From contig NC_083284.1 in the NCBI RefSeq assembly GCF_963506605.1, positions 20,708,001 to 20,772,000 of the forward strand: a DNA stretch of 64,000 nt, given 5' to 3'. Made by a program: the position numbers. Every line of letters begins with the position of its first letter. Position 1 is the first letter of the stretch. The DNA is from Zootoca vivipara. Its lineage: Eukaryota. Positions 49,901-52,900 of the stretch are shown here, piece by piece.

Positions 49901-52900
49901 TGTGTGTGTGTGTTGGATTTTCATCAGAACCATGGCAGGGGAAGGGTGGGGGAAGGACCTGTTGAATATTCATTCCCTGTGTCTGCAGTCATGGGATTGT
50001 TGTCTATCACATGACGGTATATGTTTTCATTCCACAGAGTGGGAAGTGACGAAGACAGGATGTTTTTGTTCCTTGAAGTGGGACTATTGTCCTTTGTTCT
50101 TTCTCTTTGCTGCCTGATGCTAGAGAGAGGGGTAGCCATGTTGCAGTGCTCCATGTGTGTTTATATGTAAATAAAATAGATTAGCCGAATGCTGAGTTGC
50201 TGAGGTCTGTTACGCAAACTGCAAAAACTCTGCGGATCCCTAAGCTTGCTAATGCTTTTTGGCATCAGTTGCTGTGAATTTCGTGCTGGAAAAAGCTTTT
50301 GAAGCTCCTGAACGATTGACCAGGAGGGAGAGAACATGCCAGTCAGGCATGCGTCTTTGCCACGGTCCTACTCATGAGTAGACGCTCCTGTAACAGGACC
50401 CACCCACCCACACTCTGGTCTTCATAAAAGATACACACACCCAGCCCCACACCTGTTACTGTTATTTTTAAAAACCCAAAGATGTTTTTACTGCCATACC
50501 TTATTCGGCCTTAAGGGAGCTAATGAGGGGGAGAATCAGGAGCCACAAGTTCCTGGGACTAAGGCCAGTGGGAGAAGCTGGCAGGAGGCAGGCTTCTGTG
50601 AGAACTAGGTCTGGCCAGCAATAACACCTAGTCAAGGCTGACTGTTCCTCACTGGAAGCCTGCCCAGTCTATGCCCACCGTTGAAGACGGCATACCTTTG
50701 AATACCACTTGCTGAGAATCACAAGTGTGGAGGTCTGTGTTGTACTTACGTCCTGCTCGCGGGCTTCCCATAGGAAGAGGCTGGGCGCTGTGAGAATAGG
50801 ATGCCAGACTGCATGGGCCCTTGGCCTTATCGGGCAGGGTTCTTCTCATGTTCCTAAAGTTTTGGGCTGCACATAATAACATTTTAAACCCCAGAAGCAA
50901 TAATAACAGAACAGGTAGAGTCGATAGACCTTTGGGCTTGTCCAGTAGGGTTGTCTTTACATCCTCGTAGCTCTCCCAGAACACGGAAACAATGGGATAC
51001 TTGGTTGTGAGGAGTCACTCTAGAGAACAGCTGGAAAAACTGTGGCCCTTCTGTTGTTGCCGACTACAGTTCCCACCATCATATTCTGCCTTGTTCAGGC
51101 CACACCTGGAATACTCTGTCCAGTTCTGGGCACTACAATTTAAAAAGGATACCGACAGTGCTATTTTTCTAGGGAAAGGTGCCAGAACTCACCATGAATG
51201 CCTCCCCTTTTCTCTTACAATGGCAATGGCGCCCACCTAAGAGGTGCCAGAACTGATTTTCTGTGAGTTCCGGCTGAAAAAATAGCCCTGGGTATTGACA
51301 ACTGGAATGTGTGCAGAGGAGGTCTGGAAACCAAGCCTAATGAGGAATGGTTAAGGGATATGGGGTATGTTTAGCTTGGAAGAGAGGAGGCTGAAAGGAG
51401 ATATGATAGCCATCTTCAAATATCTAAAGGGCTGCCACATGGAAGATGGAGCAAGCTTGTTATCTCCTGCTCCAGAGGGTAGGACCAGTACCAGTGGATT
51501 CAAGTTACAAGAAATGAGATTCTGACTAAACATCAGGAAGAACTTTCTGACAGGTAGGTAGCCGTGTTGGTCTGGCGCAGTCAAAACAAAATAAAAAAAA
51601 TCCCTCCAGTAGCACTTTAGAGACCAACTAAGTTTGTCATAGGTATGAGCTTTCATGTGCATGCACACTTATACCAACGACAAACTTAGTTGGTCTCTAA
51701 GGTGCTACTGGAAGGATTTTTTTATTTTGTTTTAACTTTCTGACAGTAAGAGCTGTTAAACAGTGGAATGGACTCCCACAGAAGGTGGTGAACTCTCTTT
51801 CATTGGATGTTTTAAGCAGATGTTGGATGGCCATCTGTAATGGATGCTTTAGTTGGATTCTTGCATTGCAGGGGGTTGGACTAGATGACCCTAGAGGTTC
51901 CTTCCACCTCTAGAATTCTATGATTTTATGGTTCCTGGCTGGGGCTGATGGGAATTGGAATCCAACAACATCTGGAGGGCTATGGGTTACCCATCCCTGT
52001 TCTAGACTCTGAGAGGATATCATGGACCAAGCAACTTTCTGAGGTGAGCCCGTTTCCTCACTCCATTGATCCTAAAGGTGGGGATTTGGAGGAGCATCTC
52101 CTCCCCCATTGTATCAGCCTGGACACTGAGGTCCACCTCTGGGGGCCTTCTGAGAGAACCCTGGGAGTTGTAGTTTACTCTCCACAGAACTCTTAGTTAG
52201 CACCCTTGGCAAACTACAGTGCTTGGGATTCTTTGGGGGAAAGCCACGTGCCTTAAATGTATGGTGTGGTCTGGATGTGACCCAAGTCTCTTTACTGATC
52301 AACCTCTGCCAGTCATCATGGAGGGTCATCAGTAGGAGATGCTTTAGTTGCGCCCTCCATTGGTGAGCCTGTATTGAGCAGGAGGTTGGGCTAGACAGAG
52401 ACCTTCTAACTCCACGATTGTGCCCTGTAAATATGTTTGTTGCTTTCTAGTGGCACTGGTTGTTATGATGGATGCACCTGGCACCCTCACTTTTCTCTTT
52501 CCAAGGAATAACCTCTCAGATAAACTGTGCCTTTGGGATGGAGGCCAACAAATCTCCTGCTGCTAGAAAGCCGTGTGTCAGTACAGATTGAATTTTGGTT
52601 GGTATTTGAAGCACGATGTACTTAGATGATCAGGCCTCAAGCTAGCCCTGTGAAATTTCACCCTCGATCGGAAGTACTTAGCAAATGTACAGACAGGTAC
52701 CTGTATTAGTCTGCTCCAGCTAGGAGAGTTTTGCAGGGCATTAACGACTAGCAAATTTGTTGTGGCATGAACTTTTTGTGGCTTATCAGAATGCTGTCAG
52801 TTCTGATTTCTCTGTCCAGTTCAAAGATTTCACCTCTGTAGTCAGGGCAGTCTCGAGCGGGTCGGCCGCCCTGGCGCTGAGGGGCGGAGATCGCTCCGGC

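What the first reader, a model, noticed from the sequence alone, without database searches (positions are those of the whole stretch)
51554..51733. Inversion junction lies exactly at the predicted ribozyme cleavage site
Seen: the antisense arm stops just past stem II (...GCACACTT, 51670). The sense arm begins with ATACC at 51671, the first nucleotides of the predicted 3' cleavage product. The host CR1 gives a clean empty-site reference and a 13-bp TSD. Inference: the reverse-transcribed RNA had a 5' end made by self-cleavage, which would be a genomic fossil of in vivo ribozyme activity. One copy plus CT microhomology could be chance.
Basis: partly seen in the sequence, partly recalled or inferred. 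Interest (0 to 1): 0.75.

Follow-up and report, generated by a model that had tools for sequence, protein, structure and literature searches.

The report
Truncated inverted Penelope-like retroelement insertion
This is an ordinary, heavily shortened, head-to-head insertion of a Penelope-like retroelement inside a CR1 repeat, and the match between its inner junction and the hammerhead ribozyme cut site is real but too isolated to show that the ribozyme cut the RNA.

Summary
The described sequence is there. A 180-bp insert (51554-51733) sits between perfect 13-bp duplications. It has two inverted arms, and the right arm starts at ATACC (51671), the base after the scissile bond of a minimal type-I hammerhead.

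The element has the published hallmarks of a Penelope-like element (PLE) insertion:
- a min-hammerhead with a 1-bp helix III and a palindromic AGCU;
- head-to-head 5'-truncated arms;
- a 29-nt "tail" on one arm only;
- 89-97 nt from the cut site to the outer end, against 85-92 nt in the Anolis PLE PAc.

The ribozyme-fossil inference is not established. The window holds three such hairpin copies, so six inner arm ends, at 0, -14, -14, -24, -30 and -34 nt. Only 1 of 6 is at the cut site, with a chance of about 0.06-0.16. The partner arm of the same copy reads 24 nt through the site.

No genome of origin was available, so the proposed histogram could not be run. Verdict: known kind of element; the junction coincidence is a testable lead, not evidence.

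The parts
51541..51553 (.). Left copy of the 13-bp target-site duplication (AACTTTCTGACAG)
   Evidence: Exact direct repeat D4. In frame with the flanking CR1-like ORF remnant.
51554..51582 (-). 29-nt 'tail': outer extension present only on the left arm. It is AC-rich in the sense orientation (...CCAGACCAACACGGCTACCTAC).
   Evidence: The left arm runs 93 nt from the cut site and the right arm 63 nt. Alignment. Matches the 30-40-bp PLE tail (PMC8557442; PMC11167929).
51583..51646 (-). Left-arm body, sense on the - strand, homologous to the right arm
   Evidence: 59/63 identical plus one indel. Inverted repeats I1/I2.
51647..51670 (-). Hammerhead remnant on the left arm. It holds helix II (GTGTGC AT GCACAT), GAAA and GCTC, and lies 24 nt upstream of the scissile bond. 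The CUGANGA box and the 5' strand of helix I are missing.
   Evidence: Motif features compared with PMC4209133.
51671..51733 (+). Right arm, sense on the + strand. It starts at ATACC (first base after the predicted cut) and ends at ...ATTTTGTTTT, without a tail.
51734..51746 (.). Right copy of the 13-bp target-site duplication
   Evidence: frame NFLTVRAVKQWNGLP.
34405..34602 (.). Copy A of the same family. Left arm 34405-34506 (- sense, with tail), 22-nt filler 34507-34528, right arm 34529-34602 (+ sense). Duplication TTTCCTCAGAGG at 34393-34404 and 34603-34614. Both arms end 14 nt upstream of the cut site.
   Evidence: (76/77).
37038..37227 (.). Copy B. Left arm 37038-37164 (- sense, intact hammerhead core at 37135-37164) and right arm 37165-37227 (+ sense, starts GTATCTGAAG, G12 changed to A). 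The 11-bp duplication TGATCTTTGTG lies at 37027-37037 and 37220-37230, and the right copy overlaps the right-arm end by 8 nt.
   Evidence: (58/59).
24080..24144 (+). Old single-arm fragment of the family. It starts about 12-17 nt downstream of the cut site and has no inverted partner.

Best explanation
The 180-bp insert is a severely 5'-truncated, head-to-head (inverted) insertion of the pLTR/ORF-junction segment of a Penelope-like retroelement (PLE), or of a non-coding derivative mobilised by one. It landed in the 3' part of a CR1 LINE.

Inferred mechanism:
1. The PLE reverse transcriptase/GIY-YIG endonuclease nicked both target strands 13 bp apart.
2. Each 3'-OH primed cDNA on PLE RNA from the same source.
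3. The left cDNA started at the distal initiation site, which gives the 29-nt tail. The right cDNA started at the proximal site.
4. Both cDNAs ran towards the minimal hammerhead and stopped within it.
5. The two 3' ends were then joined, by template jump or fill-in on the sister cDNA, to give the inverted junction.

Shown: the anatomy (duplication, arms, one-sided tail, hammerhead motif, distances) and the same design in two more copies in the window.

Inferred: the double priming and the joining step.

The right arm's inner end does coincide with the scissile bond. It is 1 of 6 arm ends in the window, and five of six arms were copied from RNA uncut at that site. The coincidence is therefore best treated as unproven: chance, a pause at the ribozyme junction, or a single run-off on a cleaved RNA.
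For: Anatomy:
- 13-bp duplication and inverted arms.
- Only four loci of the family in the window, three of them hairpins with duplications of 13, 12 and 11 bp.
- Tail of 29 nt on one arm only, in the 51.6-kb copy and copy A.
- In each copy the two arms share private variants.
- In copy B the right arm ends in 8 nt of homology to the target, as expected for an independent second primer.

Hammerhead motif: CUGAAGA, one extra A, G10.1...C11.1, a 6-bp helix II, GAAA, the palindromic GC, then UC^A. Helix I is GGUAU/AUACC. These are the min-HHR features listed in PMC4209133 (whole text parts 1-2 read).

Published PLE insertion features:
- An inverted 5'-truncated copy and a one-sided 30-40-bp tail are described as typical (PMC8557442, passages; PMC3846280, passages).
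- The Anolis PLE protein cleaves and extends both strands. It starts reverse transcription at two internal sites 111-118 nt into the ORF, with the hammerhead cut at +26, so 85-92 nt lie between them. The tail is the stretch between the two starts (PMC11167929, main text).
- Here the cut-to-end distances are 93, 89 and 97 nt.
Against: - No PLE reverse transcriptase or GIY-YIG ORF is in the window. Pfam was run on 73 of 89 ORFs of 90 aa or more; the 16 dropped overlap the long ORF at 11.4-16.1 kb.
- The open frame through the left arm found no protein relative.
- No Rfam hammerhead hit.
- Family assignment therefore rests on structural hallmarks and on comparison with text descriptions, not on alignment to a PLE consensus.
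- All six arm ends fall within 35 nt upstream of the cut site. Random truncation does not explain this, which hints that the hammerhead matters for junction formation through its structure, dimer or cleavage.
- The targets are not obviously AT-rich or ATT as reported for PAc.
Confidence: 0.7

Rival explanations
1. The RNA that templated the right arm had been cut by the hammerhead. Reverse transcriptase ran off at the new 5' end (AUACC...) and jumped onto the 3' end of the sister cDNA. The junction would then be a fossil of in-vivo ribozyme cleavage.
For: - The junction is blunt and exactly at the scissile bond.
- The PAc hammerhead cleaves in vitro when the protein is present (PMC11167929).
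- Minimal hammerheads act as dimers, so one cut and one uncut partner is conceivable (PMC4209133; PMC6765202, passages).
- A jump from a template's 5' end onto an acceptor's 3' end would explain a join without microhomology (established behaviour of non-LTR reverse transcriptases, recalled).
Against: - Only 1 of 6 arm ends in the window lies at the site. The other five are at -14, -14, -24, -30 and -34.
- Chance of at least one hit is 0.06-0.16, before allowing for the finding having been picked because of the coincidence.
- The same copy's left arm and copy A's filler span the uncut site.
[quoted passage not shown] No RNA-seq reads begin or end at the cut site.
Confidence: 0.22
2. Self-priming. 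A single cDNA folded back on the perfect 14-nt helix II palindrome (GTGTGCATGCACAC) or nearby and copied itself. The junction position would reflect hairpin geometry and later trimming, not an RNA end.
For: - Arkhipova et al. 2013 inferred self-priming from palindromes at PLE inverted junctions (PMC3846280, passages).
- The helix II palindrome sits at or next to all three junctions.
- Copy A is symmetric about it, at -14/-14.
- The two arms of each copy share private variants.
Against: - Fold-back from ...GCACACTT would give ...GCACAC-GAAAGCTC-ATACC, not the observed direct step to ATACC.
- The outer ends of the right arms fall at a common proximal site (63 and 60 nt) or at an 8-nt target homology. 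This fits an independent second primer better.
Confidence: 0.15
3. Later deletion. The insertion was first a longer, near-perfect palindrome, and a central deletion (palindromes are unstable) happened to end at the cut-site position.
For: - This copy is older than A and B: its arms differ at 4 of 63 positions plus an indel, against 1 of 77 and 1 of 59.
- Its centre is asymmetric, with 24 nt present on one side only.
Against: - There is no trace of a deletion scar.
- The young copies A and B also have short arms ending inside the hammerhead, so short arms are primary.
Confidence: 0.08
4. Structural stop. Reverse transcriptase paused at the three-way junction of a folded or dimerised but uncut hammerhead and switched template there.
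For: - All six arm ends lie within the 35-nt hammerhead.
- The motif folds into helices I and II, with dG -10.8 kcal/mol, in 60% of the ensemble.
Against: - The fold is not much better than shuffles (z -1.65; 14 of 200 shuffles fold as well).
- There is no direct evidence of pausing.
Confidence: 0.1

Closest known systems
Penelope-like elements of the Penelope/Poseidon type, for example PAc of Anolis carolinensis (PMC11167929; PMC8557442; PMC3846280)
   Same: - Head-to-head inverted 5'-truncated copies.
- A tail of about 30 nt at one end only.
- Short target duplications.
- A hammerhead at the pLTR/ORF junction.
- About 90 nt from the hammerhead cut to the insertion end.
   Different: - No RT/GIY-YIG ORF in the window.
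- The core reads CUGAAGA, so there is no AUG in the box.
- Copies A and B have stops in all frames through the arm.
- The targets are not clearly ATT or AT-rich.
- No sequence alignment to PAc was possible, because its consensus is in a file that could not be read.
Minimal (dimer-type) type-I hammerheads of metazoan PLEs (Cervera and de la Pena 2014, PMC4209133; Lunse et al. 2017, seen only in reference lists)
   Same: - CUGANGA and GAAA boxes.
[quoted passage not shown]
- The G10.1-C11.1 pair.
- A long helix II and a 5-bp helix I.
- A 1-bp helix III with the palindromic GC.
   Different: Activity is untested. No covariation is available from four loci. Rfam models do not detect it.
Twin priming of L1 insertions (Ostertag and Kazazian 2001, recalled and not read here)
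   Same: A second target strand primes a second cDNA, giving an inversion within one insertion flanked by a duplication. Internal priming by microhomology is seen in copy B.
   Different: In L1 the inverted part is the more 5' region of the same RNA. Here both arms copy the same 3' region, so the result is a hairpin duplicate.
R2 and L1Tc elements, whose 5' end is set by an HDV-like ribozyme (review PMC6765202, passages)
   Same: The idea that a self-cleaving ribozyme defines the 5' end of the retrotransposed RNA.
   Different: In those elements the ribozyme sits at the element's 5' end and the link is established. Here the hammerhead is internal to a tandem transcript, and 5 of 6 arms read through it.

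Membership tests
PLE minimal hammerhead (min-HHR) | Catalytic boxes CUGANGA and GAAA | tested here: met
   An intact pair occurs once in the window, at 37135-37164(-). GAAA is kept in the left arm of the 51.6-kb copy and in both arms of A. It reads AAAA in the right arm of B. The CUGANGA box is absent from the flagged copy.
PLE minimal hammerhead (min-HHR) | [quoted passage not shown] | tested here: met
   CUGAAGA-A-GUGUGC AU GCACAC-GAAA-GC-UC^A. Features as listed in PMC4209133.
PLE minimal hammerhead (min-HHR) | Helix I of 4-5 bp closing a type-I motif | tested here: met
   GGUAU/AUACC occurs in the right arm of copy B only. The MFE fold shows helices I and II.
PLE minimal hammerhead (min-HHR) | Self-cleavage, as a dimer or protein-assisted | not testable with these tools
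   Needs a biochemical assay. Only the PAc homologue was assayed, in PMC11167929.
Rfam hammerhead families | Match to a curated covariance model | tested here: not met
   No hammerhead hit at gathering score over the whole window. None at E<=10 over 51400-51900 and 34300-37400. Only generic hairpin matches to miRNA models were found, all below their cut-offs.
Penelope-like element insertion | ORF with a telomerase-like RT and a GIY-YIG endonuclease | tested here: not met
   Pfam on 73 of 89 ORFs of 90 aa or more found one weak RVT_1 fragment at 26541-26813(-), unlinked to the element, and no GIY-YIG. Protein search with the arm's open frame found no candidate. This is expected for fragments truncated to under 130 nt per arm, so it argues against an autonomous copy here, not against a PLE origin.
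Penelope-like element insertion | Inverted 5'-truncated copy adjoining the direct copy (head-to-head) | tested here: met
   3 of 4 family loci in the window.
Penelope-like element insertion | 30-40-bp tail at one end only | tested here: met
   29 nt in the 51.6-kb copy and in copy A. Copy B is atypical: its left arm is 13 nt longer, and its right arm was primed internally.
Penelope-like element insertion | Insertion end about 85-92 nt downstream of the hammerhead cut, in an AC-rich segment | tested here: met
   93, 89 and 97 nt. The end reads ...CCAGACCAACACGGCTACCTAC. Compared with the numbers in PMC11167929.
Penelope-like element insertion | Sequence homology to a curated PLE consensus | not tested
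   No eukaryotic repeat library or genome was available. The PAc consensus is in a .gbk or PDF supplement that could not be read.

The most novel reading that the evidence does not exclude
In vertebrate PLEs the protein-assisted hammerhead dimer cuts one of two paired template RNAs during double-strand target-primed reverse transcription. Run-off at the new 5' end, followed by a jump onto the sister cDNA, creates the enigmatic head-to-head junction. Genome-wide, the inner arm ends would then peak at C17^A in core-intact subfamilies. That would be the first in-vivo trace of min-hammerhead cleavage and a functional role for it in PLE integration.
Probability: 0.15. Interest if true: 0.7.

Novelty: new member of a known kind. 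Interest (0 to 1): 0.33.

Why it matters
What hammerheads do in Penelope-like elements is an open question. They are conserved in pLTRs and cleave poorly in vitro. They are dispensable for in-vitro insertion and have left no RNA-seq signal in Anolis (PMC4209133, PMC8557442, PMC11167929).

If inverted-arm junctions piled up genome-wide at the scissile bond, old insertions would record ribozyme action in vivo. They would also link it to the unexplained inverted architecture. As it stands, this locus only illustrates the known PLE insertion design and offers a cheap genome-wide test.

Tried and rejected
- **Rfam.** The whole window at gathering score and the copies at E<=10 gave no hammerhead. 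They gave only sub-threshold miRNA-model matches that any long hairpin produces. Rejected as miRNA genes.
- **More copies in the window.** BLAST and an nhmmer profile built from six arms were run. Of 18 nhmmer rows at E<=10, 7 strong rows make up four loci, 1 row is copy A's filler, and 10 rows at E>=0.4 were taken as noise. A motif scan for any min-hammerhead on both strands gave 1 hit.
- **More copies elsewhere.** Two exact-pattern scans of genome contigs (bacteria and archaea only) gave 0 and 0 hits. The proposed histogram was therefore not run.
- **Empty-site paralogue.** The flanks match no other CR1 copy across the site.
- **Coding test.** A 36-aa query was too short. A 42-aa stretch including 4 flank residues found no candidate.
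- **Literature.**
  - A 19-nt stretch of the family occurs in no held paper.
  - No paper reporting PLE junctions at the hammerhead cut was found in searches.
  - Lunse 2017 and Pyatkov 2004 are not held.
  - The one readable supplement of PMC11167929 was only a list of read archives. Its Fig. S1/S2 PDFs and the consensus file could not be read and may bear on arm-end distributions.
  - The bioRxiv 2026 preprint was read in outline plus section 14. Its supplements are closed.
- **RNA cofold.** Two hammerhead copies gave an intermolecular helix II duplex rather than the helix III dimer. This is uninformative.

Full report
**What is there**

The window is 64 kb of vertebrate-type sequence, 44% G+C, with two N runs that I left untouched. 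I do not take it for human. It carries CR1-like and Penelope-like repeats, which the papers read here describe as absent from mammals (PMC6765202; bioRxiv 10.64898/2026.07.22.740005, abstract).

At 51541-51553 and 51734-51746 lies a perfect 13-bp direct repeat, AACTTTCTGACAG, enclosing 180 bp. The 180 bp are two inverted arms:
- 51554-51670, which on the + strand is the antisense of the element and ends ...GCACACTT;
- 51671-51733, which is sense and begins ATACC.

Over the shared 63 nt the arms match 59/63 with one 1-nt indel. The flanks read as one continuous CR1-like frame once the insert and one repeat copy are removed...LNIRKNFLT | VRAVKQWNGLPQKVV. That this frame is CR1 ORF2 is my recall. 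No other CR1 copy in the window spans the site.

**The family and its ribozyme**

BLAST and an nhmmer profile find only four loci of this family in the window:
- the flagged copy;
- copy A (34405-34602);
- copy B (37038-37227);
- a single-arm fragment (24080-24144).

Aligned in the sense orientation, they give GGUAU-CUGAAGA-A-GUGUGC AU GCACAC-GAAA-GC-UC^AUACC. This has every feature that Cervera and de la Pena list for the minimal hammerheads of metazoan Penelope-like elements (PMC4209133):
- both catalytic boxes;
- the G10.1-C11.1 pair;
- a long helix II and a 5-bp helix I;
- no real helix III, only the palindromic AGCU that lets two copies pair.

A motif scan of both strands finds one intact core, at 37135-37164(-). 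The only arm with both strands of helix I (copy B, right arm) has G12 changed to A. It folds into helices I and II at -10.8 kcal/mol, z -1.65. Rfam does not detect any hammerhead, so the cut site is assigned by motif, not by a model or an assay. The flagged copy itself lacks the CUGANGA box and cannot be a ribozyme. The claim concerns its source RNA.

**It is a Penelope-like insertion**

Three of the four loci are head-to-head hairpins with target duplications of 13, 12 and 11 bp.

In the flagged copy and in copy A one arm carries 29 extra outer nucleotides, AC-rich in sense (...CCAGACCAACACGGCTACCTAC), that the other arm lacks. The distance from the cut site to the outer end is 93, 89 and 97 nt for the long arms, and 63 and 60 nt for the short arms.

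The literature describes exactly this:
- PLE insertions are strongly 5'-truncated, often with an inverted 5'-truncated copy adjoining, and with a 30-40-bp "tail" at one end only (PMC8557442, passages; PMC3846280, passages).
- For the green-anole element PAc, the purified protein cleaves and extends both target strands.
- PAc starts reverse transcription at two internal sites, in an AC-rich stem-loop 111-118 nt into the ORF. The hammerhead cut is at +26, so 85-92 nt lie between them.
- The tail is the stretch between the two start sites (PMC11167929, main text read).

The match of design and distances is close. What is missing is the coding part:
- no RT or GIY-YIG ORF in the window (Pfam on 73 of 89 ORFs of 90 aa or more; the 16 left out overlap the 1676-aa ORF region);
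- no protein relative of the open frame that runs through the left arm.

I could not align to a PLE consensus. I therefore call it PLE-derived, or PLE-mobilised, on structural grounds.

**The junction claim**

In the flagged copy the join is blunt. GCACACTT matches the antisense sequence of copy B 8/8, and T51670 fits only the left arm. ATACC follows directly. Only CT (51668-51669) could belong to either arm. The right arm thus begins exactly at the base after the scissile bond, unless a later C-to-T change hides a 3-nt longer arm.

Measured the same way, the six inner arm ends in the window lie at these positions upstream of the cut:

| Copy | Arm ends |
|---|---|
| Flagged copy | 0 and -24 |
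| Copy A | -14 and -14 |
| Copy B | -30 and -34 (or -35) |

The single-arm fragment starts about 12-17 nt downstream of the cut. One of six ends is therefore at the site. Under uniform nulls over 36, 66 or 100 positions, the chance of at least one hit in six is 0.16, 0.09 or 0.06. That is before allowing for the finding having been chosen because of the coincidence.

Five of six arms, and the 22-nt filler at the centre of copy A (two units of a short stretch that spans the site), were copied from templates uncut at that bond. This agrees with PMC11167929:
- catalytic hammerhead mutants insert normally;
- no RNA-seq reads begin or end at the cut site, although the ribozyme does cleave when the protein is present.

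**How it most likely arose**

Shown: two arms from one source (shared private variants), outer ends at two recurrent positions or at an 8-nt target homology (copy B), and inner ends inside the hammerhead.

Inferred:
- Both target strands were nicked, and each primed a cDNA.
- The two antisense cDNAs were then joined 3' end to 3' end. This needs one polymerase to continue on the other cDNA, by template jump or microhomology fill-in.
- Copy A's iterated filler looks like repeated abortive priming of that kind.

Arkhipova et al. proposed self-priming at palindromes for such junctions. Here the 14-nt helix II palindrome sits at or beside all three junctions. However, a simple fold-back does not reproduce the flagged junction, and the outer ends fit a second primer better.

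One point remains unexplained by random truncation: all six ends fall within the 35-nt ribozyme. The hammerhead may matter for junction formation through cleavage, dimer pairing or stalling. A genome-wide peak at position 0 would therefore need the core-intact versus core-mutated control before it could be read as cleavage.

**Comparison and novelty**

The element is a new member of a known kind. The idea that a ribozyme sets a retroelement's 5' end is established for R2 and L1Tc with HDV-like ribozymes (review passages). I found no such report for PLE hammerheads in searches.

- only window.fa was available;
- the PDF figures of PMC11167929 that show genomic end coverage could not be read.

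**Verdict**

Interest is modest unless the genome-wide peak exists.

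Noticed in passing
window 11528-16555 (-): An uninterrupted 1676-aa open frame with a DUF4585 domain (E 3.8e-24) near its C-terminal end. It is probably one very large coding exon of a host gene.
   Followed up: no
window 40589-41011 (+): An open frame with a short match to the Isy1-like splicing factor family (E 1.4e-7). It is probably one exon of a host gene.
   Followed up: no
window 36790-36925: A separate near-perfect hairpin repeat (...CCAGATGTTTTGGACTACAA... paired with ...GTTGTAGGCCAAAACATCTGG...). It gives sub-threshold miRNA-model hits and looks like a MITE-type element. 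Related half-sites flank the finding near 51040 and 51950.
   Followed up: partly
window 34400-34409, 37046-37055, 51549-51558: In all three hairpin copies the long arm's outer junction reads CAG(AG)|GTAGGT. Copy B's longer tail shows that the element itself continues ...CTACCTGTAAC. Up to 3 nt of primer-template homology (CAG/CUG) may therefore be used at the distal initiation site.
   Followed up: partly
window 37231-37244: Directly after copy B's right target duplication lies ATGTGCATGCAAAC, 12/14 identical to the helix II palindrome. It could be a remnant of an older copy at the target (PLEs insert into their own kind) or chance.
   Followed up: no
window 51555-51662 (-): In the flagged (older) subfamily one frame is open from an ATG in loop II through the whole arm (36 aa). 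Copies A and B have a stop there. No protein relative was found.
   Followed up: yes
window 26541-26813 (-): A weak RVT_1 fragment (E 1.8e-6, just below the Pfam cut-off), presumably a decayed LINE. It is not adjacent to any copy of the hammerhead family.
   Followed up: no
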